From Octopus sinensis (Eukaryota), in contig NW_021824880.1 in the NCBI RefSeq assembly GCF_006345805.1, positions 1-17,332 on the forward strand: 17,332 bases of DNA, given 5' to 3'. Position 1 is the first letter of the stretch. Each line of letters starts with the position of its first letter. This document shows, in pieces, positions 109 to 17,332 of this stretch. Both the position numbers and the translations under genes were made by a program. Below the pieces are notes generated by a model, which saw only the letters and a program-made list of their open reading frames with translations, had not been told where the DNA came from and did no database searches.

Positions 109-172
109 CAGTGGTTCTCAAACTTTTTTTCCTTGCGTACCCCTTGCCATCTAATAATTTTTCGCGTACCCC
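109..172. repeat. hAT TIR plus subterminal motifs, downstream of the transposase
   Basis: TIR 109-124; GCGTACCCC at 135-143 and CGCGTACCCC at 163-172. Confidence 0.93.
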
Positions 173-210
173 TTATCGATTTTTAAAAAATTAAGGAAAA
201 AAAATATTAA

Positions 211-2065
211 TTAATGAGATGGATGGTGTTGTTATCAATCACTAATCTATCGATTTCTGGATCCTTTGACGAAAGACACCCGAATATCATGAACAACATT
301 CAGCCTCGCACGATGAACTGATTTTAAATTAAACAACGATGAAAATCCTTGTTCGCAGAGATATGTAGTCGGAAACAAAAGCAAAAAATCGATTATATAA
401 AATCCAATATTGTGATATTTTGATGTCATTTTACACCAAAATTCAATTAATGGTGCAGATTCAAATAAGATTTTTGACTCGTAAGAATTTATTAATTCAA
501 TAACTTCTTCTTGAATATTTGAAGGCAAAACATTAACTTTTACGAAAAAGGATTGACAAAAACTTAAGATCTACTTCATTAATTTCAGGTATATATTTTT
601 CAATTTCATTCTTCAATCCAAGTAAATGGGAAGTTATTTGATGTTTTAAATTTTCTATTTCATTTAATTTTAGATGGAAAATGTTTTCATTCAACTTATC
701 AAACATAGTAAAATTAGAATTTGTTGTATTATCTATCCACAGTTGGAGCTTCATACGAAAAGACCTACAATATTGCATTATTTCGTAAAAAACCTTGTTT
801 TTTCTAAAAAGTCAACAATGGTAACTCCCTTAGTTTGTACCGATAAATTCAAAGCATTAATTGCGAAAAAATGTCCGTTAAATAAGATAGCATTACACCC
901 CAATACATATTTGATAACTTTGATAAATATAAATTTTTATTTTCGCGAAGAAAATATTCATAAATTTCATTCTTCAAACTGTGCACTCTGGAAAGAACAT
1001 TTCCTTTGGATAACCATCGAACTTCTGTGTGATATAGTAAAACCTTCTCATCTGAACCAAATTCTTCACAAATTGAATAAAAAATTCGCGAATTTAAAGG
1101 ACTTTTTTTGATATGATTGACAATTTTAATAACATCGTCAAGAACATTTTTAAGTTCAAGAGGCATTGTCTTCACAGCAAGAAACAACGATGCAACATAC
1201 AGTGAAGATGTTTTACATTTGGATTGACAGATTGTACTCTACCTCGGAAACCAGAGTTACATCCAAGCATAGCTGGTGCTCCATCTGTGGTGCATGCACT
1301 AAGATTTTGCCACAATAGGCCTATCATAAGTAAAAAATCAAAAATGTACCTTCTGTTTCAAAAAAACAATTAACTGCATCGAAAATATCAGAACCTTTTG
1401 TGTTTAAAGGTAAGGAATAGTTGAACAAAAATTCTCCTTAATATTTTCCATATAAATATATCGCACATAAACGAGTAACTGAGAGCAATTTGCTACATCT
1501 GTTGATTCATCCAATTGAATTGAAAATTTTTTAAAGGCAGCACTTTTTATTTCAGTAATGACCTAATAATAATTAACCAGAAAATAACTTGTTCTTTTAT
1601 GTTTTCGGATAGATCTCGTATTCTTCTATTGACGGTATCATTTGAACATGGAATTTTTCGAACAATATGCTCCATTTATTGCCAGGGAAACATTCAAACA
1701 TGTCCTTAATGCACGGTATAATAAGATTCTCGGCAATTGTATGTGGTTTTTGGCTTTTGCGATCCGATATGAAATCATGTAAGAGAGTTTTGATAGTAAA
1801 AAATTAATGTCAAAATTGAAAGAATCGTCTATTTTCCGAATATTATCTTTTTTGTTCTTAAAAAGTCATTTGGTTTTCCGATAGTTTCGAAATGATTAGA
1901 AACTTGATGCCGAGAAAGTAATGAAGGTTTCATGGATTCAGGGCAAAGAATCTTTTGGCAAATAATACACTGCGGATGTGGCACACCGTTTTTAATCACA
2001 AAATAAAATCCATAGTTGAGATAACTATCGTTGTATTTTCGAATCTTGTTAACAGGTAAACTCAT
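211..2065 (-). pseudogene. Buster-type hAT transposase (~615 codons), broken by multiple frameshifts in this sequence
   Basis: Motifs occur in the expected order across frames: RKYNDSYLNYGF; BED finger CIIC...LSRHQVSNH; KPHTIAENLIIPC; FSIQLDESTDVA (first D); CTTDGAPAMLG (second D); HCMLHR (CxxH); HTEVRWLSKG; PTTYLCEQGFS (catalytic E); C-terminal QHHPSH-stop (TAA at 211-213). Confidence 0.93.
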
Positions 2066-2194
2066 AAGAAAAACTAGTAGCGTGGAGATTTATTTTATTA
2101 TTAATTATTTAATTTAATTATGATTTTTATTATAATTAGAATTAATAACTTTTTTATGTTGAAACGAAAATTAAATAGATTTTCAAAAAATTTT

Positions 2195-2259
2195 CGCGTA
2201 CCCCCTACAGAATTTCGCGTACCCCTAGGGGTACGCGTACCCCAGTTTGAGAACCACTG
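2195..2259. repeat. hAT subterminal palindromic motif cluster plus TIR, upstream of the transposase
   Basis: CGCGTACCCC at 2195 and 2216; overlapping perfect palindromes CGCGTACCCCTAGGGGTACGCG (2216-2237) and GGGGTACGCGTACCCC (2228-2243); TIR 2244-2259. Confidence 0.93.
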
Positions 2260-2515: not shown

Positions 2516-3160
2516 ATAAGGTCCAATTTAGATCGGAACGACTACTTCGAAATATCTCCAAAGTAGATCTTGCCGATCCTGTGAACGTGTCTCTCTTATT
2601 TTTTATCGTAGAAAATAGATTATTTTATTAATAAAATTTAGTGATTTAATTGTTAAATTTGATTTTTAGAATTAAATAAAAATTTAATTAGTTAAAAATA
2701 CATGAAATGCAAACATTTCTTGCAAGAATTAATCCCCGATTTCTTCAGCGATGACCAAAGCACGCATTTCAAGGCGGTGACACGTCTATAAGAACTATTA
2801 AAATACAAAGACTGCACCACCTCAGAATCCGACTTTCAATCAATTATTAATGGACTTTTTTCTATAATTACGACCAGCTTCAGCCACTGCAGATACAACC
2901 CAGGGGTTACCATTCTTTAAGAAATCTAAACAGTAGCATAATCGAATTTGTCAGTTTCGGCAGTTAAAAATAATCAATTATGTAAATCTCTAATAATTTT
3001 TGCTTTTTCCTTTTTAGTGGTTTTCAAAATCTGATAATTGCACAGTATATTCATGGTCGATAACAATTAGAGCTTTTATTTTATTTTTTTAACGAAAATT
3101 TAACAAAAAGAATTTATGTCATCGAAAAAAGATAGCTAAGCTAATTAATGGCCTCACGAG

Positions 3161-3936
3161 GCTTGAAGGTTGTGGAGGACCTCATCATGTGAGTCGAGGA
3201 CTTTCTTGTCGTTCATTTTAACAAAAACGCAGAAAATATTTTTTTTTAATTTTTGGGCTTGAAGGTTTTGGGGACCACATCATGTGAGTCGAGGACTTTC
3301 TTGTTGTTCATTTAACAAAAACGCAGAAAATAATTTTTTTTAATTTTTGGCTTGAAGGTTTTGAGGGACCACATCATGTGAGTCGAGGACTTTCTTGTTG
3401 TTCATTTTAACAAAAACGCAGAAAATAATTTTTTTTAATTTTTTGGCTTGAAGGTTTTGAGGGACCACATCATGTGAGTCGAGGACTTTCTTGTTGTTCA
3501 TTTTAACAAAAACGCAGAAAATAATTTTTTTAATTTTTTGGCTTGAAGGTTTTGGGGACCACATCATGTGAGTCGAGGACTTTCTTGTTGTTTATTTTAA
3601 CAAAAACGCAGAAAATAATTTTTTTTAATTTTTTGGCTTGAAAGTTTTGGGGGACCACATCATGTGAGTCGAGGACTTTCTTGTTGTTCATTTTAACAAA
3701 AACGCAGAAAATAATTTTTTTAATTTTTTAGCTTGAAGGTTTTGGGGGACCACATCATGTGAGTCGAGGACTTTCTTGTTGTTCATTTTAACAAAAACGC
3801 AGAAAATAATTTTTTTTAATTTTTTGGCTTGAAGGTTTTGGGGGACCACATCATGTGAGTCGAGGACTTTCTTGTTGTTCATTTTAACAAAAACGCAGAA
3901 AATAATTTTTTTAATTTTTTAGCTTGAAGGTTTTGG
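3161..3936. repeat. ~95-bp satellite array, left segment (~8 units)
   Basis: Unit CTTGAAGGTTTTGGGGGACCACATCATGTGAGTCGAGGACTTTCTTGTTGTTCATTTTAACAAAAACGCAGAAAATAA(T)7-8AA(T)5-6(GG/AG/AC). ACCAC anchors at 3274, 3368, 3464, 3558, 3654, 3749, 3845 give periods of 94-96 bp. Confidence 0.98.
3923..3936 (+). repeat. Left TSD of the LINE (CTTGAAGGTTTTGG)
   Basis: The satellite stops after CTTGAAGGTTTTGG at 3936 and restarts with CTTGAAGTTTTGG at 7796-7808, so this part of a single unit is present on both sides (one-G difference). Confidence 0.88.
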
Positions 3937-3987
3937 TGCGTTTCGTTTCTGGTTGTGCAAATAGCAAAATTGAAAATAGCAAAATTA

Positions 3988-5114
3988 ATGTTAATTTCAA
4001 ACAAGAAAAAGAAAATCGGAAAGTGTCGATAATTGTACGTGTGTCAAACACCTCTTTTGATTCAATTGAGGTTGCCAACATCATCTGTAATTCGAAAACT
4101 GCCCTCAAGGCGAGAATCTCCCGTCGCTTTGATGGCTCATACGAACTTGTCTTTAATTCGGAACGGGATTTCGAGTCTTTTAAAAACGATTGGGAAATGA
4201 AGCTTCCTTTTGGTGACAATGGGCACACAATAGAGCACCGAACACCCAGGGATTCGACCTTAATGATGAGGAATCTACCTTTTTGGGTTGATAACGAGGA
4301 TCTACACAGGCTTTTGTCGAAAGTGCTATCCCCAGGGTTCAAACTGGAAAGATTTAGTAAAAATGGGAAAAATCTGCCACTTGGCAAGCTTACTATCCAG
4401 GACAGAAACGAAGCACAGTCGTTGATCACCCTAGGTCTTAAAATTGGCTTCAACCAAATCCGTTTTACCTGGTACAAAAATCCCGAGAGGCAATGCTATC
4501 GATGTTACAAATTTGGACACATCTCGTTATACTGTAAAGAGACAGTGCGCTGTTTGTTGTGTGGTGATGCACACGATCGCACCCAATGTACGATCGGAAC
4601 ACACGTCAAACTCCCGTGCATCAACTGCGGATCACATGGACACCGGGCGAACTGGTTGGGCTGTCCGGTGGCGAAACAATCGACAAAGAAGAAACTGGAA
4701 GTGACTCCCACTAAGAGAAATCGTGTAAATGCAATACAAATGTCTGGCATACAAATGTCTTGGTCGAAGAAGTTACTTAATCCGAAATGCGATATTGGTG
4801 TTCAAACTGACGTTATCGTCATGAACTTGATCGAATCAGGAAGTCAGACCTGCTTCATTAACACGGGAATTCAAACGGACCCATGCCCAGAAACAAAACC
4901 CGCCGCCCCGAAGGCGAGAGCAGTGAAGAAAACTGCAGTAGCAAAATCTGGAGTTCAGCTGCCAAGCCCTGAAGCCCGGCTGGAGGACGATGGGACGCCT
5001 CCAGAGCCGGCTGAAACCGGTGGCAAACGGAAAGCAGGCAGACCCCCTTTACCGAAAAAGGTGGCGCTCCCACGGGAGGTCAGCCACCCATGTCGGAAGG
5101 ATTCCTTGCTCTGA
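3988..5114 (+). CDS. LINE ORF1p, gag-like nucleic-acid-binding protein with three CCHC knuckles (start uncertain)
   Basis: CYRCYKFGHISLYC, CLLCGDAHDRTQC, CINCGSHGHRANWLGCP, preceded by an RRM-like region (LMMRNLPFWVDNEDL) and followed by a basic Pro-rich tail. The listed TTG start at 3924 lies in the satellite/TSD. The ATG at 3988 is one base out of frame and the first in-frame ATG is at 4197. Confidence 0.88.
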
Positions 5115-7665
5115 CAATTCTAAATGCCCGCTCGCTTGCGAGACGGGCATCGGAGCTGAGGCTCCTGCTGGCCACAGCGAAGTCTCACATATTGATTATC
5201 AATGAGACTAAGCTGAAGGAAGCTACGAGGGTGGAATTCGAAGGCTATAAGTCTATTAATATACCATGGAAAATAAACTCAGTGGCGGGGACAGGAACCT
5301 CAGTCTACTACAGGGCGAACCTTAAGGTAAGAAACATCAGAATTGTGGAGGAGTCACTCTGTGAACTTATTGTGCTCGAGCTGCACACGACTGCTGGCTG
5401 GCTAACCGTCGGGGGAATGTACTCAAAGTCGCTAAGGCGCTATTCAAACGTTATTGGGACGTTCTTTGAGGAAAATTGCCTGTCAATCCTAGCAGGAGAT
5501 CTTAATGCCAAAAATGTGAGTTATGGATGTGAAACTACGAATATGGATGGAACTGTCCTTGAGGACTTGGCCAGTAGCTTGGGTTTTTCGGTCTTTACAT
5601 CGGAAGAACTGAATCATGCAGACAGAGGCAGGGCTGATCGCTTGGGTCTCTTTCTATGCTCGGCATCAATTAGTCCTTTATGTTACATACCGAGGTTGGA
5701 AGCGGACATTGGCTCTGACCACGTGCCGCAAACGATGTTGATAAAGATGACTATGAATGTTACGGAGGACTTGTTCATTGGTTACAACCTCGTGAACATG
5801 AACTGGAGTTTATTCGAATCATATATGCGGGATTCTCTTCGAAATGTCGTGTCCCAGCCTCTGAGAAGCAGAGATGATATTGACAATCTCGATGATCACC
5901 TTAGATCGTCAATCATAAAATTCCTGGATGTTTATGCATTAAAAAATGTATGGAAACCCAAAGGAACGCAAAAGCGGATGAATTCGAAACTTGTCACTCT
6001 GATCAGAACGAAAGGTACCCTGGAAAATCGCAGGAGAAGATGTCGGGTTGAGTCAATCAAATGCCGCCTGAAATTGGAGATCGACAAGATAAAATCTACT
6101 ATTGCAAAAATGGCCAAGACTGAGGTCGAAAGTAAATGGAGGTCTGAATGCAGAAAACTGGATAAGCGAAACCCTAATTTCTGGAAAGCATATCAACGCC
6201 TTACCAGAAATGATGCCAAAGGATTTGAAATTTCACTAAAAGAACCAGACGGGAAATATATCTCCTCTGATCGTATCCCGGAAGTACTCAGGAACCAACT
6301 GAGTAAGGTTCAAGAGGTCGAATCTACCGTTCCACGAGGGACTTATGACCGAATTGTGAAGAAGCTTGGCTCTTCGCAATTATCGGAGGGACCATTATGT
6401 GGGGCGATAACACAGGAAGAGGTTGAAAGGGCAATTGCTGGGTTGAAGAACAAGGCGCCTGGCTTCGACTACATCCCTCCGAAGTTGTTAAAGAAGGCCC
6501 CTGAAATCTTGATACGAGCATTGACTATGTTGTTTCACGCCAGCTGGACGTTCGGACACCTTCCATCGGCGTGGAAGCATACGATTGTTCGAATGATTCC
6601 AAAATCTGGTAAATCGACACTGCTGGCACAGAACTACCGGCCAATTAGCCTCATTTGTGCTTTCTCTAAGACAATGGAAAAGATTGTCTTTAACAGACTC
6701 TCTGGTCATATAGAATCACAAAATTTGCTTTTACCTGAACAATGGGGATTTCGTGGAGGAAGATCCACAGGGGACTGCCTCAGGGAGTTAGAGCACCAAT
6801 TATCCCGTGCTGACAGAAATGAAGCATGGCTAACTGTGGTGTGTCTGGATCTGGCCAAAGCCTTCGATAGCGTGTGGCACCTGGGCCTACTCTCCAGAAT
6901 CCATGACATCGGAGCCGGGATAAAGACCTATCGATGGCTGGAGAGCTTCTTGTCAGGAAGACAATCATTTCCGCTGTGGAAACCGCCTATCGGGGTGTGT
7001 GGAACTTAGAAGGGGAGTCCCGCAGGGATCTATCTTGAGTCCACTTCTGTTCAACCTCTTCTTGGCGGACATTCCTCTGCCGTCGACACGTACTGGCAAG
7101 CTCGTTATCTATGCTGACGATATCCTGGTCATGGATACCTCGAAAAGGATATCGCAGTCTTGGAGACGACTGAAATCATACATTGCAACGCTAAAGATGT
7201 GGACTATAGAGAAGGGTTTGACCCTAGCACCGGAGAAGAGCACCATTTCATGGTTGCGGAGAGGGAGTCGCTATGCGGAGTCTTGTGCATATGCGATGAG
7301 TAGCTATGTGATGGATCTCTCGAAAAGAAAAAATCTTTCTTACCTGGGAGCAACCATTAACTGTCGTGGCTCGTACGTAGAGCATATAGCAAATCAGAGA
7401 AAGAGGAGTGTGAGGATCCTCAAAAGCTTAACCAGGTTCCATCTGGATCTGGAAACGTACATCTACGTTTAAAAGACGTGTGACAGCCAGTTTTCACATA
7501 TGGCTACGAGGCGCTTTCGGTACAGAGGAGAGTGACTACCTTATCAAACAGTTGGAAAAGACAAGACGTTTCGCGTTGAAACTGGCTTACGGAAAGCTAG
7601 AAGACTCGCATGAATCCTCTGTGCCCACGATCCGGATGGTCCTGGAGAATTGTCGTCAAACATGA
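5090..7665 (+). pseudogene. LINE ORF2p: apurinic-like endonuclease plus reverse transcriptase (~855 codons), interrupted in this copy
   Basis: APE motifs: LNARSL, INETKL, LAGDLNAK, GSDHVP. RT motifs: KAPGFDYIP, YRPISL, QWGFRGGRST, LDLAKAFDSVWH, GVPQGSILSPLLFN, YADD, YLG; then QPVFTYG and QLEKTRRFALKLAYG. There is a frameshift near 6960-7000, TAA at 7470-7472 and further shifts near 7480-7520. No RNase H or C-terminal CCHC is visible. Confidence 0.93.
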
Positions 7666-7763
7666 CTAGTATTGGGGATACGCATGGAAAGAGACACTTC
7701 GGTGCCTTGTTTTTATCTCCCCGCCGATGTTTTTCTTCCTTGTTTTTCTTTTTCTTCTCGCTC

Positions 7764-7798
7764 AATAAACACTATTCTATTCTTCTATTCTTCTTCTT
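7764..7798 (+). promoter_or_regulatory. LINE 3' end: AATAAA signal followed by a TATTC/TTC repeat tail
   Basis: AATAAA at 7764-7769, then CAC-TATTC-TATTC-TTC-TATTC-TTC-TTC running into the TSD; no poly(A). Confidence 0.8.
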
Positions 7799-10700
7799 GA
7801 AGTTTTGGGAGACCACATCATGTGAGTCGAGGACTTTCTTGTCGTTCATTTTAACAAAAACGCAGAAAATATTTTTTTTAATTTTTGGGCTTGAAGGTTT
7901 TGGGGGACCACATCATGTGAGTCGAGGACTTTCTTGTTGTTCATTTTAACAAAAACGCAGAAAATAATTTTTTTAATTTTTTACCTTGAAGGTTTTGGGG
8001 GACCACATCATGTGAGTCGAGGACTTTCTTGTCGTTCATTTTAACAAAAACGCAGAAAATATTTTTTTAATTTTTGGCTTGAAGGTTTTGGGGGACCACA
8101 TCATGTGAGTCGAGGACTTTCTTGTTGTTCATTTTAACAAAACGCAGAAAAAATTTTTTTTAATTTTTTACCTTGAAGGTTTTGGGGGACCACATCATGT
8201 GAGTCGAGGACTTTCTTGTTGTTCTTTTAACAAAACGCAGAAAATAATTTTTTTAATTTTTTAGCTTGAAGGTTTTGGGGACCACATCATGTGAGTCGAG
8301 GACTTTCTTGTCGTTCATTTTAACAAAAACGCAGAAAATATTTTTTTTAATTTTTGGCTTGAAGGTTTTGGGGGACCACATCATGTGAGTCGAGGACTTT
8401 CTTGTTGTTCATTTTTAAAAAACGCAGAAAATAATTTTTTTAATTTTTTACCTTGAAGGTTTTGGGGGACCACATCATGTGAGTCGAGGACTTTCTTGTT
8501 GTTTATTTTAACAAAAACGCAGAAAATAATTTTTTTTAATTTTTTGGCTTGAAGATTTTGAGGGACCACATCATGTGAGTCGAGGACTTTCTTGTTGTTC
8601 ATTTTAACAAAAACGCAGAAAATAATTTTTTTTAATTTTTTGGCTTGAAGGTTTTGGGGGACCACATCATGTGAGTCGAGGACTTTCTTGTTGTTTATTT
8701 TAACAAAAACGCAGAAAATAATTTTTTTAATTTTTTGGTTTGAAAGTTTTGGGGGACCACATCATGTGAGTCGAGGACTTTCTTGTTGTTCATTTTAACA
8801 AAAACGCAGAAAATAATTTTTTTAATTTTTTAGCTTGAAGGTTTTGGGGGACCACATCATGTGAGTCGAGGACTTTCTTGTTGTTCATTTTAACAAAAAC
8901 GCAGAAAATAATTTTTTAATTTTTTACCTTGAAGGTTTTGGGGGACCACATCATGTGAGTCGAGGACTTTCTTGTTGTTCATTTTAACAAAACGCAGAAA
9001 ATAATTTTTTTAATTTTTACCTTGAAGGTTTTGGGGGACCACATCATGTGAGTCGAGGACTTTCTTGTTGTTCATTTTAACAAAAACGCAGAAAATAATT
9101 TTTTTAATTTTTTAGCTTGAAGGTTTTGGGGACCACATCATGTGAGTCGAGGACTTTCTTGTTGTTCATTTTAACAAAAACGCAGAAAATAATTTTTTTT
9201 AATTTTTTGGCTTGAAGGTTTTGGGGGACCACATCATGTGAGTCGAAGACTTTCTTGTTGTTCATTTTAACAAAACGCAGAAAATAATTTTTTTAATTTT
9301 TTACCTTGAAGGTTTTGGGGGACCACATCATGTGAGTCGAGGACTTTCTTGTTGTTCATTTTAACAAAAACGCAGAAAATAATTTTTTAATTTTTTACCT
9401 TGAAGGTTTTGGGGGACCACATCATGTGAGTCGAGGACTTTCTTGTTGTTCATTTTAACAAAACGCAGAAAATAATTTTTTAATTTTTTAGCTTGAAGGT
9501 TTTGGGGGACCACATCATGTGAGTCGAAGACTTTCTTGTTGTTCATTTTAACAAAAACGCAGAAAATAATTTTTTTATTTTTTTTGCTTGAAGGTTTGGG
9601 GGACCACATCATGTGAGTCGAGGACTTTCTTGTTGTTCATTTTAACAAAAACGCAGAAAATAATTTTTTTTAATTTTTTTGCTTGAAGGTTTTGGGGGAC
9701 CACATCATGTGAGTCGAGGACTTTCTTGTTGTTCATTTTAACAAAAACGCAGAAAATAATTTTTTTAATTTTTTAGCTTGAAGGTTTTGGGGACCACATC
9801 ATGTGAGTCGAGGACTTTCTTGTCGTTCATTTTAACAAAAACGCAGAAAATATTTTTTTTTAATTTTTGGCTTGAAGGTTTTGGGGGACCACATCATGTG
9901 AGTCGAGGACTTTCTTGTTGTTGTTCATTTTAACAAAACGCAGAAAATAATTTTTTTTAATTTTTTGGCTTGAAGGTTTGGGGGACCACATCATGTGAGT
10001 CGAAGACTTTCTTGTTGTTCATTTTAACAAAAACGCAGAAAATAATTTTTTTAATTTTTTAGCTTGAAGGTTTGGGGGACCACATCATGTGAGTCGAAGA
10101 CTTTCTTGTTGTTCATTTTAACAAAAACGCAGAAAATAATTTTTTTATTTTTTGGCTTGAAGGTTTTGGGGGACCACATCATGTGAGTCGAGGACTTTCT
10201 TGTTGTTCATTTTAACAAAAACGCAGAAAATAATTTTTTTAATTTTTTGCTTGAAGGTTTTGGGGGACCACATCATGTGAGTCGAGGACTTTCTTGTTGT
10301 TCATTTTAACAAAAACGCAGAAAATTTTTTTAATTTTTTAGCTTGAAGGTTTTGGGGGACCACATCATGTGAGTCGAGGACTTTCTTGTCGTTCATTTTA
10401 ACAAAAACGCAGAAAATATTTTTTTAATTTTTGGGCTTGAAGGTTTTGGGGGACCACATCATGTGAGTCGAGGACTTTCTTGTTGTTCATTTTAACAAAA
10501 ACGCAGAAAATATTTTTTTTAATTTTTTGGCTTGAAGGTTTTGGGGGACCACATCATGTGAGTCGAGGACTTTCTTGTTGTTTATTTTAACAAAAACGCA
10601 GAAATAATTTTTTTAATTTTTTGGCTTGAAGTTTTGGGGGACCACATCATGTGAGTCGAGGACTTTCTTGTTGTTCATTTTAACAAAAACGCAGAAAATA

Positions 10701-13700
10701 ATTTTTTTAATTTTTTACCTTGAAGGTTTTGGGGGACCACATCATGTGAGTCGAGGACTTTCTTGTTGTTCATTTTAACAAAAACGCAGAAAATAATTTT
10801 TTTATTTTTTTAGCTTGAAGGTTTTGGGGGACCACATCATGTGAGTCGAGGACTTCTTGTTGTTCATTTTAACAAAAACGCAGAAAATAATTTTTTTAAT
10901 TTTTTGGCTTGAAGGTTTTGGGGGACCACATCATGTGAGTCGAAGACTTTCTTGTTGTTCATTTTAACAAAAACGCAGAAAATAATTTTTTTTAATTTTT
11001 TACTTGAAGGTTTTGGGGGACCACATCATGTGAGTCGAGGACTTTCTTGTTGTTCATTTTAACAAAAACGCAGAAAATAATTTTTTTAATTTTTAGCTTG
11101 AAGGTTTTGGGGACCACATCATGTGAGTCGAGGACTTTCTTGTTGTTCATTTTAACAAAAACGCAGAAAATAATTTTTTAATTTTTTACCTTGAAGGTTT
11201 TGGGGGACCACATCATGTGAGTCGAGGACTTTCTTGTTGTTCATTTTAACAAAAACGCAGAAAATAATTTTTTAATTTTTTACCTTGAAGGTTTTGGGGG
11301 ACCACATCATGTGAGTCGAGGACTTTCTTGTTGTTCATTTTAACAAAAACGCAGAAAATAATTTTTTTAATTTTTTAGCTTGAAGGTTTTGGGGACCACA
11401 TCATGTGAGTCGAGGACTTTCTTGTTGTTCATTTTAACAAAAACGCAGAAAATAATTTTTTTTAATTTTTTGGCTTGAAGGTTTTGGGGGACCACATCAT
11501 GTGAGTCGAAGACTTTCTTGTTGTTCATTTTAACAAAAACGCAGAAAATAATTTTTTTAATTTTTTACCTTGAAGGTTTTGGGGGACCACATCATGTGAG
11601 TCGAGGACTTTCTTGTTGTTCATTTTAACAAAAACGCAGAAAAAATTTTTTTTAATTTTTGGGCTTGAAGGTTTTGGGGGACCACATCATGTGAGTCGAG
11701 GACTTTCTTGTTGTTCATTTTAACAAAAACGCAGAAAATAATTTTTTTAATTTTTTACTTGAAGGTTTTGGGGGACCACATCATGTGAGTCGAGGACTTT
11801 CTTGTTGTTCATTTTAACAAAAACGCAGAAAATAATTTTTTTTAATTTTTTGGCTTGAAGTTTTGAGGGACCACATCATGTGAGTCGAGGACTTTCTTGT
11901 TGTTCATTTTAACAAAAACGCAGAAATAATTTTTTTAATTTTTTGGCTTGAAGTTTTGGGGGACCACATCATGTAAGTCGAGGACTTTCTTGTTGTTTAT
12001 TTTAACAAAAACGCAGAAAATAATTTTTTTAATTTTTTGGTTGAAAGTTTTGGGGGACCACATCATGTGAGTCGAGGACTTTCTTGTTGTTCATTTTAAC
12101 AAAAACGCAGAAAATAATTTTTTTAATTTTTTACCTTGAAGGTTTTGGGGACCACATCATGTGAGTCGAGGACTTTCTTGTTGTTCATTTTAACAAAAAC
12201 GCAGAAATAATTTTTTTAATTTTTTACCTTGAAGGTTTTGGGGGACCACATCATGTGAGTCGAGGACTTTCTTGTTGTTCATTTTAACAAAAACGCAGAA
12301 AATAATTTTTTAATTTTTTAGCTTGAAGGTTTTGGGGGACCACATCATGTGAGTCGAGGACTTTCTTGTTGTTCATTTTAACAAAACGCAGAAAATAATT
12401 TTTTTAATTTTTTACCTTGAAGGTTTTGGGGGACCACATCATGTGAGTCGAGGACTTTCTTGTTTTCATTTTAACAAACGCAAAAAATTTTTTTAATTTT
12501 AACCAAAAAACGCAGAAAATAATTTTTTTAATTTTTTACCTTGAAGGTTTTGGGGGACCACATCATGTGAGTCGAGGACTTTCTTGTTGTTCATTTTAAC
12601 AAAACGCAGAAAATAATTTTTTAATTTTTTAGCTTGAAGGTTTTGGGGGACCACATCATGTGAGTCGAGGACTTTCTTGTTGTTCATTTTAACAAAAACG
12701 CAGAAAATAATTTTTTTTAATTTTTTGGCTTGAAGGTTTTGGGGGACCACATCATGTGAGTCGAAGACTTTCTTGTTGTTCATTTTAACAAAACGCAGAA
12801 AATAATTTTTTTAATTTTTTACCTTGAAGGTTTTGGGGGACCACATCATGTGAGTCGAGGACTTTCTTGTTGTTCATTTTAACAAAAACGCAGAAAATAA
12901 TTTTTTTAATTTTTTACCTTGAAGGTTTTGGGGACCACATCATGTGAGTCGAGGACTTTCTTGTTGTTCATTTAACAAAAACGCAGAAAATAATTTTTTT
13001 AATTTTTTAGCTTGAAGGTTTTGGGGACCACATCATGTGAGTCGAGGACTTTCTTGTTGTTCATTTTAACAAAAACGCAGAAAATAATTTTTTTAATTTT
13101 TTGGCTTGAAGGTTTTGGGGGACCACATCATGTGAGTCGAGGACTTTCTTGTTGTTCATTTTAACAAAACGCAGAAAATAATTTTTTTAATTTTTTGGCT
13201 TGAAGGTTTTGGGGACCACATCATGTGAGTCGAGGACTTTCTTGTTGTTCATTTTAACAAAAACGCAGAAAATAATTTTTTTAATTTTTGGCTTGAAGGT
13301 TTGGGGGACCACATCATGTGAGTCGAGGACTTTCTTGTTGTTCATTTTAACAAAAACGCAGAAAATATTTTTTTTTAATTTTTTGGCTTGAAGGTTTGGG
13401 GGACCACATCATGTGAGTCGAGGACTTTCTTGTTGTTCATTTAACAAAAACGCAGAAAATAATTTTTTTAATTTTTTGGCTTGAAGGTTTTGGGGACCAC
13501 ATCATGTGAGTCGAGGACTTTCTTGTTGTTCATTTTAACAAAACGCAGAAAATAATTTTTTTTAATTTTTTGGCTTGAAGGTTTTGGGCCACATCATGTG
13601 AGTCGAGGACTTTCTTGTTGTTCATTTTAACAAAAACGCAGAAAATAATTTTTTTTAATTTTTTAGCTTGAAGGTTTTGGGGACCACATCATGTGAGTCG

Positions 13701-16249
13701 AGGACTTTCTTGTTGTTTATTTTAACAAAAACGCAGAAAATAATTTTTTTTAATTTTTTTGGCTTGAAGGTTTTGGGGGACCACATCATGTGAGTCGAGG
13801 ACTTTCTTGTTGTTCATTTTAACAAAAACGCAGAAAATAATTTTTTTAATTTTTTGGCTTGAAGGTTTTGGGGGACCACATCATGTGAGTCGAGGACTTT
13901 CTTGTTGTTCATTTTAACAAAAACGCAGAAAATAATTTTTTTTAATTTTTTGGCTTGAAGGTTTTGGGGGACCACATCATGTGAGTCGAGGACTTTCTTG
14001 TTGTTCATTTTAACAAAAACGCAGAAAATAATTTTTTTAATTTTTTACCTTGAAGGTTTTGGGGGACCACATCATGTGAGTCGAGGACTTTCTTGTTGTT
14101 CATTTTAACAAAAACGCAGAAAATAATTTTTTTATTTTTTCCTTGAAGGTTTTGGGGGACCACATCATGTGAGTCGAGGACTTTCTTGTTGTTCATTTTA
14201 ACAAAAACGCAGAAATAATTTTTTTAATTTTTTTGGCTTGAAGGTTTTGGGGGACCACATCATGTGAGTCGAGGACTTTCTTGTTGTTCATTTTAACAAA
14301 AACGCAGAAAATAATTTTTTTTAATTTTTTGGCTTGAAGGTTTGGGGGACCACATCATGTGAGTCGAGGACTTTCTTGTTGTTCATTTTAACAAAAACGC
14401 AGAAAATAATTTTTTTTAATTTTTTGCTTGAAGGTTTTGGGGGACCACATCATGTGAGTCGAGGACTTTCTTGTTGTTCATTTTAACAAAAACGCAGAAA
14501 ATAATTTTTTTAATTTTTTGGCTTGAAGGTTTTGGGGGACCACATCATGTGAGTCGAGGACTTTCTTGTTGTTCATTTTAACAAAAACGCAGAAAATAAT
14601 TTTTTTTAATTTTTTGGCTTGAAGGTTTTGGGGACCACATCATGTGAGTCGAGGACTTTCTTGTTGTTCATTTTAACAAAAACGCAGAAAATAATTTTTT
14701 TAATTTTTACCTTGAAGGTTTTGGGGGACCACATCATGTGAGTCGAGGACTTTCTTGTTGTTCATTTTAACAAAAACGCAGAAAATAATTTTTTTAATTT
14801 TTTACCTTGAAGGTTTTGGGGGACCACATCATGTGAGTCGAGGACTTTCTTGTGTTGTTCATTTTAACAAAACGCAGAAAATAATTTTTTTAATTTTTTA
14901 CCTTGAAGGTTTTGGGGGACCACATCATGTGAGTCGAGGACTTTCTTGTTGTTCATTTTAACAAAAACGCAGAAAATAATTTTTTTAATTTTTTACCTTG
15001 AAGGTTTTGGGGGACACATCATGTGAGTCGAGGACTTTCTTGTTGTTCATTTTAACAAAAACGCAGAAAATAATTTTTTTTAATTTTTTTTGCTTGAAGG
15101 TTTTGGGGGACCACATCATGTGAGTCGAGGACTTTCTTGTTGTTCATTTTAACAAAAACGCAGAAAATAATTTTTTTAATTTTTTTGCTTGAAGGTTTTG
15201 GGGGACCACATCATGTGAGTCGAGGACTTTCTTGTTGTTCATTTTAACAAAAACGCAGAAAATAATTTTTTTTAATTTTTTGGCTTGAAGGTTTTGGGGG
15301 ACCACATCATGTGAGTCGAGGACTTTCTTGTTGTTCATTTTAACAAAAACGCAGAAAATAATTTTTTTTAATTTTTGGCTTGAAGGTTTTGGGGGACCAC
15401 ATCATGTGAGTCGAGGACTTTCTTGTTGTTCATTTTAACAAAAACGCAGAAAATAATTTTTTTAATTTTTTGGCTTGAAGGTTTTGGGGACCACATCATG
15501 TGAGTCGAGGACTTTCTTGTTGTTCATTTTAACAAAAACGAAAAATAATTTTTTTAATTTTTTACCTTGAAGGTTTTGGGGGACCACATCATGTGAGTCG
15601 AGGACTTTCTTGTTGTTCATTTTAACAAAAACGCAGAAAATAATTTTTTTAATTTTTTACCTTGAAGGTTTTGGGGGACCACATCATGTGAGTCGAGGAC
15701 TTTCTTGTTGTTCATTTTAACAAAAACGCAGAAAATAATTTTTTTTAATTTTTTTGCTTGAAGGTTTTGGGGACCACATCATGTGAGTCGAGGACTTTCT
15801 TGTTGTTCATTTTAACAAAAACGCAGAAAATAATTTTTTTTAATTTTTTGGCTTGAAGGTTTTGGGGGACCACATCATGTGAGTCGAGGACTTTCTTGTT
15901 GTTCATTTTACAAAAAACGCAGAAAATAATTTTTTTATTTTTTGGCTTGAAGGTTTTGGGGGACCACATCATGTGAGTCGAGGACTTTCTTGTTGTTCAT
16001 TTTAACAAAAACGCAGAAAATAATTTTTTTTAATTTTTTGGCTTGAAGGTTTGGGGGACCACATCATGTGAGTCGAGGACTTTCTTGTTGTTCATTTTAA
16101 CAAAAACGCAGAAAATAATTTTTTTTAATTTTTTTGGCTTGAAGGTTTTGGGGGACCACATCATGTGAGTCGAGGACTTTCTTGTTGTTCATTTTAACAA
16201 AAACGCAGAAAATTGACTTGAAGGTTTTGGGGGACCTCATCATCGAGGA
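7796..16249. repeat. ~95-bp satellite array, right segment (~8.45 kb, roughly 89 units)
   Basis: Same unit and orientation as 3161-3936. Variation is mainly homopolymer length plus a few recurrent substitutions. Copy number is estimated as length divided by 95. Confidence 0.98.
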
Positions 16250-16388
16250 TATTCTTTCTTATTAAAATTTTTTGACAGGAAGGTTCTTAGAGGATATCAA
16301 CCTTTTATTGTGCCTCATTATCGAATAACTACAAAAGGGAAGGTTTTGACAATTTGATCTGGTTTGTAACAATTTGAATGTGGGTGTG

Positions 16389-16432
16389 CACAGACAGACA
16401 GACAGACACACAGACAGACAGACAGACACACA
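16389..16432. repeat. Compound (CAGA)n/(CA)n microsatellite
   Basis: CACAGACAGACAGACAGACA repeated twice exactly (16389-16408, 16409-16428), then CACA. Confidence 0.95.
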
Positions 16433-16454
16433 CCATACCATTTTATTATTAAGA

Positions 16455-17172: not shown

Positions 17173-17332
17173 CAATTATCAAACAAACATTTCTACTCCA
17201 ATTACAATGTAAATCCGTTGGACGAAGAAATAAGAAGTAATAGATGGGGCTTATTCGGTCACATCCTACGAATGGACAGGAAAACTCCCGCAAATCTCGC
17301 AATGGAACACCACTACGCTCCTCATCCGGAAA
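17173..17332 (+). pseudogene. RTE-like non-LTR ORF C-terminal fragment, running off the window
   Basis: A frame absent from the ORF track reads QLSNKHFYSNYNVNPLDEEIRSNRWGLFGHILRMDRKTPANLAMEHHYAPHPE, containing the RTE-type ISN-xx-LY...RW-x-LFGHILR motif. Confidence 0.8.

What the first reader, a model, noticed from the sequence alone, without database searches (positions are those of the whole stretch)
3923..7808. Candidate satellite-targeted LINE: near-complete element inserted cleanly in a 95-bp repeat unit
Seen: the element sits in one satellite unit, duplicating CTTGAAGGTTTTGG, and the array continues in register on both sides. Known: several APE-type non-LTR elements are repeat-specific (R1 in 28S rDNA, TRAS/SART in telomeric repeats, Tx1-clade elements in multicopy targets), and Jockey-clade G2/Jockey-3 is enriched at Drosophila centromeres. 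Inference: this may be an undescribed family that uses this satellite as its niche. One copy cannot distinguish targeting from chance in a 9-kb target.
Basis: partly seen in the sequence, partly recalled or inferred. Interest (0 to 1): 0.75.

Follow-up and report, generated by a model that had tools for sequence, protein, structure and literature searches.

The report
Dispersed LINE favouring Helitron repeat arrays
This is a real insertion of a young jumping gene (a LINE), likely from a dicyemid parasite sequenced along with an octopus; about nine in ten copies lie elsewhere, so it is not satellite-specific, but it lands several times more often than expected, and always the same way round, in the 95-base repeat carried inside another transposon.

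Summary
The insertion is real, but the duplication is imperfect (one G short on the 3' side) and the copy is damaged. The "satellite" is the internal array of a non-autonomous Helitron (431 ends genome-wide; 5'-TC, hairpin-CTAG, A/T target). LINE and array sit on unplaced contigs with 23-25-nt introns, likely a ~70-Mb dicyemid genome inside an octopus assembly, so the fair background is 0.9-2.6%, not 0.02%. Of 86 3' ends examined, 10 (7-8 of 73-74 independent events) abut the array; the rest lie in unrelated AT-rich DNA. Strict targeting is refuted, and no other copy clearly uses the CTTGAAGG site. A weak preference remains: about 4-12-fold (P 3e-3 to 3e-7), one orientation only (none reversed in a strand-neutral genome search), 7 of 8 within about 15 bp at the unit's T-run, and only among the youngest copies. 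A motif built from non-array sites explains the position and up to about 2.5-fold, but predicts the opposite strand. The nearest precedent is Tx1-Mar/SINEU weakly preferring another transposon; here the RT looks Jockey/I-like, clade unresolved. The scan had noted the dicyemid host before, but not this LINE.

The parts
2916..16454 (-). Non-autonomous Helitron (A subfamily) that carries the 95-bp array. Its 5'-TC end is at 16454; its 3' part (Pif1 remnant, hairpin, CTAG) is missing in this copy beyond 2916
   Evidence: Shared flank with five other A copies stops about 254 bp upstream of the anchor here, against about 1,663 bp in those. Ends and A/T target. PIF1 remnant in a sister copy, E 1e-19
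3160..3936 (+). Left part of the 95-bp internal array (8.2 units)
3923..3936 (+). 5' copy of the target-site duplication; the last TGG is shared with the element's 5' end
3934..7797 (+). APE-type non-LTR retrotransposon, 98.8% identical to the intact copy at C12605 and lacking its first 3 nt
3933..5114 (+). ORF1 with three Cys/His knuckle-like motifs; the start ATG (nt 3-5 of intact copies) is replaced by target TTG
   Evidence: (zf-CCHC E 0.052, below cut-off)
5090..7665 (+). ORF2: APE endonuclease + RT, no RNase H hit; broken here by a frameshift near 6969 and indels near 7480-7520; 864 aa and open in C12605
7764..7797 (+). AATAAA signal and (TATTC/TTC)n tail, overlapping the target by CT
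7796..7808 (+). 3' copy of the target-site duplication (one G short)
7796..16243 (+). Right part of the 95-bp array (about 89 units)
16389..16432 (+). ACAG microsatellite next to the Helitron 5' end

Best explanation
A young, genome-wide LINE family, likely of a dicyemid parasite, that inserts into AT-rich DNA and has a weak, one-directional hot spot in the T-run of a Helitron's 95-bp internal array; it is not satellite-specific. Shown: APE+RT anatomy, 7-16-bp duplications, 1-6-nt tail/target overlaps, dispersed copies, enrichment and one orientation in arrays, Helitron ends. Inferred: target-primed reverse transcription in which the endonuclease nicks the A-rich strand of the unit's long A/T tract (family-wide loose motif AW|TWW on the top strand) and the freed A-rich 3' end pairs with the U-rich tail. 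The array repeats this site every 95 bp; some feature beyond the linear motif (tract shape next to the G-run, or chromatin or replication of the array) likely adds the rest of the excess and the strand bias. Older subfamilies likely miss the arrays because the arrays are younger or purge insertions.
For: 66 of 74 independent events lie in unrelated flanks. Non-array sites are 84% AT against 64% background, with an AW|TWW core. 7-8 events lie in arrays against 0.6-1.9 expected at a share of 0.87-2.6%. The events have different 5' truncation points (3934, 3935, 4953, 5060, 5175, 6837, about 7060, 7298), and six have the 5' junction at the same T/G-run or just past it, as TSDs predict. A strand-neutral genome-wide pattern returned the same 10 junctions, none reversed. 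7 of 8 events lie 1-15 bp upstream of the unit's GAAG. The non-array Helitron body is as long (mean 1,572 bp against about 12 units) but holds only one event (C12605). 66 arrays (78.6 kb) picked by Helitron end had no internal insertion with array on both sides, so arrays are not full of insertions generally.
Against: n is small (7-8 events); window and L131 may be one event (both near full length, shared SNPs at 892 and 908, noisy L131 junction). The 21 held-out ends with 1-2 mismatches gave 0 in arrays, and about 18 listed ends of an older variant gave none, so the family-wide excess is nearer 3-10-fold. With the highest background (2.6%) times the motif's AT bias (2.5-fold), the count is not significant (P 0.11-0.20). 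No second young LINE family was found as a control. The extra feature that would give the strand bias is not identified.
Confidence: 0.62

Rival explanations
1. No preference beyond AT-richness: the excess reflects the family's general liking for A/T tracts, neutral survival in junk DNA, and a burst that coincided with the Helitron's spread; the shared orientation is luck.
For: A motif from 28 non-array sites puts the peak in the same A/T tract and gives up to about 2.5-fold over both strands. AT-weighted shares of 4.5-6.5% give P 0.02-0.2. All array copies are young (at least 98.8% identical) against 0 of 39 older events. Only this LINE and this Helitron recur at 96% identity or more among 1.1 Mb of held loci, apart from one small family.
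Against: The same motif favours the reverse strand (plus 0.2-1.7-fold against minus 0.6-3.9-fold), yet 7-8 of 7-8 events are plus (P 0.004-0.008 at 50:50; 7e-5 to 3e-3 at a plus share of 0.30-0.43). The best-founded share (0.9%) AT-weighted still gives P 2e-4 to 1e-3. Among the youngest copies, 7-8 of 34-35 lie in arrays (threshold chosen after seeing the data).
Confidence: 0.22
2. Coupling to Helitron activity: the LINE primes on the Helitron's own sense strand, which in the rolling-circle model is nicked, peeled off and resynthesised, so insertions would follow exposed 3' ends or single-stranded gaps in the array during Helitron copying.
For: The Helitron reads on the window minus strand (5'-TC at 16454), which is the strand that primes cDNA for a plus-strand LINE in all array events. 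The model of nick, 3'-OH priming and strand displacement is from PMC4778049 (passages). Both families are young.
Against: Array insertions have ordinary 7-14-bp duplications. The C12605 copy sits in an A-rich tract of the same Helitron family in the opposite orientation. There is no excess in the rest of the Helitron body. No direct evidence of any intermediate.
Confidence: 0.1
3. Few true events: one or two old insertions were copied by the Helitron or by array recombination and then deleted internally, inflating the count.
For: Tandem duplication of insertions within arrays is seen (C8750 x2, C9004 x2). The five B-type 3' junctions are nearly the same. L104 and L105 are identical or nearly so to the reference, so SNPs cannot separate them. 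L115 lacks an array 5' flank.
Against: Four B-type 5' junctions fall at the same T/G-run as their 3' junctions, with different truncation points, as separate TSDs predict and random deletions do not. Tails, array variants and distances to the Helitron end differ, and both A and B subfamilies are hit.
Confidence: 0.04
4. A strictly satellite-targeted family.
For: Enrichment and a single orientation.
Against: About 90% of ends lie elsewhere with normal duplications. The family is below the 20% of flanks that PMC4494074 uses to call a family target specific (section read). The CTTGAAGG site is not shared.
Confidence: 0.02

Closest known systems
Tx1-Mar and SINEU-1/-2 in Mariner-N4_AMi; Tx1 in Tx1D (PMC4494074, passages and section 6 read)
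   Same: APE-type retroelements that prefer another transposon, at set positions and set orientation; SINEU-2 (13%) and SINEU-1 (23%) show equally partial preference.
   Different: The target here is a tandem array inside a Helitron. The ORF2 (864 aa) has its best hits among mostly arthropod Jockey/I-like proteins, and nothing ties it to Tx1.
Cuscuta europaea L1-CS LINEs in the CUS-TR24 satellite (PMC8091179, passages read)
   Same: LINE insertions map to preferred AT-rich positions of a repeat monomer, with TSDs and an orientation bias.
   Different: There 91% of elements are associated with the satellite; here about 10%. Plant L1 lineage and heterochromatic satellite there, against dispersed Helitron arrays here.
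Drosophila G2/Jockey-3 (bioRxiv 10.1101/2022.11.25.518008, abstract and passages read)
   Same: Dispersed LINE with a weak bias seen mainly in young insertions and no strict target motif.
   Different: G2 favours centromere islands; nothing here shows that the arrays are centromeric (most are about 1 kb and dispersed).
Repeat-carrying rolling-circle elements: Cg_HINE of Crassostrea (PMC7492417, passages read); Helraiser ends (PMC4778049, passages read)
   Same: The host element has fixed flanks, a 4-nt microsatellite and a central satellite-like array; TC...hairpin-CTAG ends between A and T as in Helraiser.
   Different: Cg_HINEs are Helentrons that insert at TT; this one has canonical Helitron ends.

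Membership tests
APE-type non-LTR retrotransposon | ORF2 with APE endonuclease and RT | tested here: met
   Exo_endo_phos_2 E 2e-7 and RVT_1 E 1.9e-35 on the intact copy; YADD at 675
APE-type non-LTR retrotransposon | 5'-truncated copies, fixed 3' end with simple tail, variable TSDs | tested here: met
   86 ends examined, most 5'-truncated; TSD-like matches of 7-16 bp in 42 of 74 events
Jockey clade | ORF1 with CCHC knuckles; ORF2 of about 900 aa without RNase H (definition recalled) | tested here: met
   Three Cys/His motifs read by eye; Pfam zf-CCHC only E 0.052; no RNase H hit in 864 aa
Jockey clade | RT groups with labelled Jockey elements | tested here: inconclusive
   Long branch, best RT identities 30-37%; groups loosely (inner support 0.5) with a set that includes RNase H-bearing proteins rather than the large ~890-aa cluster; no clade-labelled references available
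Target-specific non-LTR elements (R1, TRAS/SART, Tx1 type) | More than 20% of flanks in one target (criterion of PMC4494074) | tested here: not met
   10 of 86 ends (12%), 7-8 of 73-74 events (10-11%); 21-23% only in a post hoc youngest subset
Target-specific non-LTR elements (R1, TRAS/SART, Tx1 type) | One fixed nucleotide position and orientation in the target | tested here: inconclusive
   Orientation fixed (10 of 10 junctions); position spread over about 15 bp, with one outlier
Target-specific non-LTR elements (R1, TRAS/SART, Tx1 type) | Endonuclease cuts the target sequence specifically | not testable with these tools
   Needs an in vitro nicking assay
Helitron (host element) | 5'-TC and CTAG-3' ends with subterminal hairpin | tested here: met
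   Both ends in 54 complete copies; hairpin folds at -11.8 kcal/mol
Helitron (host element) | Insertion between A and T | tested here: met
   A beside CTAG in 54 of 54; T beside the other end in 48 of 54
Helitron (host element) | Rep/helicase coding or remnant | tested here: met
   PIF1 remnant E 1e-19 in an A-type copy; no autonomous partner was looked for
Dicyemid origin | Introns under 30 nt in ordinary genes on contigs with the repeat | tested here: met
   Six GT-AG introns of 23-25 nt in a myosin gene on C1302, which carries the same array; median 27 bp in Dicyema sp. (PMC6543705 passages)
Dicyemid origin | Marker-gene phylogeny with named dicyemids | not tested
   A separate short (1,667-nt) 18S lies on unplaced C1618 but no reference set was available

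The most novel reading that the evidence does not exclude
A LINE caught in the act of specialising on another mobile element: its youngest lineage puts about a fifth of new copies into the internal array of a Helitron, always priming on the strand that the Helitron displaces and recopies, which would link retrotransposition to rolling-circle intermediates and give the LINE a self-multiplying safe site in a compact parasite genome.
Probability: 0.12. Interest if true: 0.72.

Novelty: new member of a known kind. Interest (0 to 1): 0.38.

Why it matters
Strictly target-specific LINEs must have arisen from dispersed ones, but intermediate states with countable preference are seldom documented. This family gives one (about 10% overall, about 20% among the youngest copies, one strand) with an intact source copy and a defined 95-bp substrate, so the endonuclease can be assayed directly. 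It also shows a trap: with the whole 2.7-Gb assembly as denominator the enrichment would look about 500-fold, whereas the cobiont-corrected figure is about 4-12-fold. If the excess is only AT bias, it is an ordinary nested insertion.

Tried and rejected
Whole-assembly denominator (array = 0.023% of 2.72 Gb): rejected, because none of the 65 exact LINE ends, none of the first 100 listed array units and none of the first 100 listed Helitron ends lie on the 30 chromosomes (2,340.9 Mb). First 3'-end pattern carried a window-private base and found only 2 copies; redone. Control with another young LINE family: none recurred at 96% identity or more in four or more of the held loci, so the control could not be run. 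Collapsed arrays as the cause: contig depths in run X2 give about 21 array units per A-type Helitron (150,000/7,000), close to the assembly's roughly 24-29 (my estimate), so no sign of collapse, but the tool warns that depth is not copy number. No listed contig piece bridged the window's junctions (lists cut), which proves nothing either way. No RNA holder listed. Clade naming: word-based search, full HMMER search, Atlas and name look-ups gave only unnamed or hypothetical, mostly arthropod, proteins. A sub-lineage of array copies: not seen, tree poorly resolved. Literature: seven searches listed no paper on this family or on a LINE preferring Helitron arrays; only the CC-licensed library was searched, Repbase and subscription papers were not, and no supplementary files were read (the D. 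japonicum repeat tables may bear on whether the family is catalogued).
Full report
Observation. The window is a whole 17,332-bp contig (C1351) of a 2.72-Gb, 13,516-contig assembly. A 95-bp array runs from 3160 to 3936 and from 7796 to 16243. Between lies a non-LTR element with an ORF1 carrying three Cys/His motifs and an ORF2 with APE and RT. The duplication is CTTGAAGGTTTTGG on the left and CTTGAAGTTTTGG on the right, one G short. Against an intact copy at C12605 (ORF1 about 393 aa, ORF2 864 aa) the window copy is 98.8% identical, lacks the first 3 nt including the A of the ORF1 ATG, and has a 3-nt deletion, a 2-nt frameshift and a divergent tract near its 3' end. One contig of run X2 carries window-type letters at several positions of that tract, so it is probably real; the two small deletions may be assembly errors.

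Whose DNA. A 99% identical protein is annotated from Octopus sinensis, but none of the 65 exact 3' ends and none of the first 100 listed array units or Helitron ends lie on the 30 chromosomes, which hold 2,340.9 Mb; 378.3 Mb are unplaced. Twelve 10-kb stretches of LINE-bearing contigs had 0-40 bp of microsatellite against 374-1,394 bp in four chromosome stretches. A myosin gene on array-bearing C1302 has six GT-AG introns of 23-25 nt, and a second, 1,667-nt 18S lies on C1618, against about 2,600 nt on the chromosomes. Dicyemids have a median intron of 27 bp (PMC6543705, passages), and D. japonicum, collected from octopuses, has a 67.5-Mb genome (PMC6736024, passages). Helitron-end density on 14 large contigs (46 ends in 7.55 Mb) scales the 431 ends to about 71 Mb (range 54-99). 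I infer a dicyemid cobiont; no marker phylogeny was run. Earlier scan notes on other contigs say the same, seen after I had reached this reading.

What the repeat is. Arrays have fixed flanks: an ACAG microsatellite and ...CCATTTTATTATTAAGA on one side, and on the other a 1.1-1.9-kb body ending in a hairpin and CTAG. In 54 complete copies the neighbouring bases are A (54 of 54) and T (48 of 54), and A-type bodies keep a PIF1 remnant. These are the canonical Helitron features (PMC4778049, passages). There are two subfamilies (41 B, 9 A, 4 unassigned of 54). Most arrays are about 1 kb, with a few of 9-30 kb. The window's Helitron reads on the minus strand from 16454 and is cut at 2916. At least 6,318 units at about 100 bp per match make 0.63 Mb, or 0.9% of about 71 Mb. 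Local samples gave 1.8% (5,734 of 326,599 bp) and 2.6% (3,152 of 120,000 bp).

Where the LINE goes. I fetched all 65 exact ends and 21 further ends (18 of the 19 non-chromosomal one-mismatch ends newly, one of them already held, and 2 of the two-mismatch ends; chromosomal near-matches, at control level, were not fetched). Ten of the 65 abut the array and 0 of the 21. Collapsing duplicates gives 8 of 74 events, or 7 of 73 if the window and L131 are one event; a few further duplicates, such as L129/L135, may remain uncollapsed. Enrichment is 3.7-12.4-fold, P 2.9e-3 to 3e-7. A strand-neutral genome-wide pattern returned the same 10 junctions, none reversed, out of 114 matches to the bare 3' motif, 8 of the 100 listed being on chromosomes and the control giving 14. 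The family-wide share is thus about 10%, and the unexamined older ends lower the excess to roughly 3-10-fold. Seven of eight events start 1-15 bp upstream of the unit's GAAG, at or just past the T-run; only the window uses CTTGAAG. All array copies are at least 98.8% identical to the intact copy: 8 of 35 such events against 0 of 39 older ones (Fisher P 0.0016, threshold post hoc). The equally long non-array body of the Helitron has one event (C12605, opposite orientation; seen, missed by the stricter test). In 60 loci chosen by Helitron end, 66 arrays (78.6 kb) had no insertion with array on both sides and none of this LINE (about 1 expected); six or seven had truncated or foreign outer edges.

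How it likely works. TSD-like matches of 7-16 bp were found for 42 of 74 events, usually overlapping the (TATTC)n tail by 1-6 nt, with a loose AW|TWW core in 84% AT context. That is ordinary target-primed reverse transcription at AT-rich sites (established for non-LTR elements; the steps are inferred here). Models trained on 28 non-array sites place the best positions in the unit's A/T tract and give at most about 2.5-fold over both strands, but favour the reverse strand in every setting. Sequence preference therefore explains the position and part of the excess, not the strand. If the background is taken at its highest and AT-weighted, the count alone is not significant; the orientation still is (P 0.004-0.008). 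I commit to a weak intrinsic preference for the A-rich strand of this tract (0.62), with pure AT bias plus luck (0.22), coupling to Helitron rolling-circle copying (0.10), inflated counts (0.04) and strict targeting (0.02) as rivals. That local DNA structure adds to endonuclease preference has precedent in Entamoeba (PMC1635306, abstract only).

Comparison. The family fails the 20% criterion for target specificity of PMC4494074 (section 6) but resembles the partial preferences of SINEU-1/-2 and Tx1-Mar for a Mariner element (passages). Cuscuta L1-CS is the strong satellite case (91%; PMC8091179, passages), and G2/Jockey-3 the weak-bias case (bioRxiv 10.1101/2022.11.25.518008, abstract and passages). 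Arrays carried by rolling-circle elements are known (PMC7492417, passages). The anatomy is Jockey-like (definition recalled), but the RT is a long branch at 30-37% identity to its best hits and could not be placed without labelled references. Seven literature searches listed no description of this family or of a LINE preferring Helitron arrays, and the scan's own index had no look-alike.

Verdict. A real nested insertion of an apparently undescribed family; not a satellite-targeted element; a modest, testable, strand-biased hot spot. New member of a known kind, interest 0.38.

Noticed in passing
window 3933-3936; L204/L205 (C12605), L040/L220 (C8320), L049/L050 (C7755), L134 (C12463), L037 (C8845): Full-length copies begin (AA)GCATGG, so the in-frame ORF1 ATG lies only 2-4 nt from the element's 5' end: almost no 5' UTR, which would require a promoter inside ORF1 or borrowed from the flank.
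   Followed up: partly
window 109-2259: hAT-type DNA transposon with perfect 16-bp terminal inverted repeats (109-124, 2244-2259) and an 8-bp duplication ATTTAGTA (101-108, 2260-2267); broken transposase-like frames on the minus strand without a Pfam hit.
   Followed up: partly
window about 7440-7640: Cluster of about 19 substitutions and a 15-nt deletion private to this copy; no other assembled copy matches it, but one X2 contig shares some of the letters. Possibly a conversion tract from a rarer subfamily.
   Followed up: partly
G000:C12433 about 169,900-200,900 (L277, L207, L130, L131): One Helitron array expanded to about 31 kb including two insertions of this LINE, against a typical array of about 1 kb: a Helitron interior growing to satellite size.
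   Followed up: partly
L102 (C8750) and L104 (C9004): Truncated LINE copies duplicated in tandem together with one or two array units, showing that array recombination amplifies inserted LINE fragments.
   Followed up: partly
L204, L104, L176, L210: B-type Helitrons carry several nested tandem repeats (15, 102, 118 and 94-95 bp, plus an A-rich tract); several Helitrons lie head to tail or inside each other (L208, L174, L249).
   Followed up: no
G000:C1618 (L141:1501-3167): Short 1,667-nt 18S rRNA gene distinct from the roughly 2,600-nt chromosomal copies; likely the cobiont's.
   Followed up: partly
window about 17,200-17,332: Reading frame ending GLFGHILRMDRK at the contig end, resembling the C-terminus of another LINE RT (read by eye; family label recalled).
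   Followed up: no
L290:2774-3684: An older relative of this LINE (78% identity) lies about 1.3 kb from a B-type array, near the Helitron's edge.
   Followed up: no
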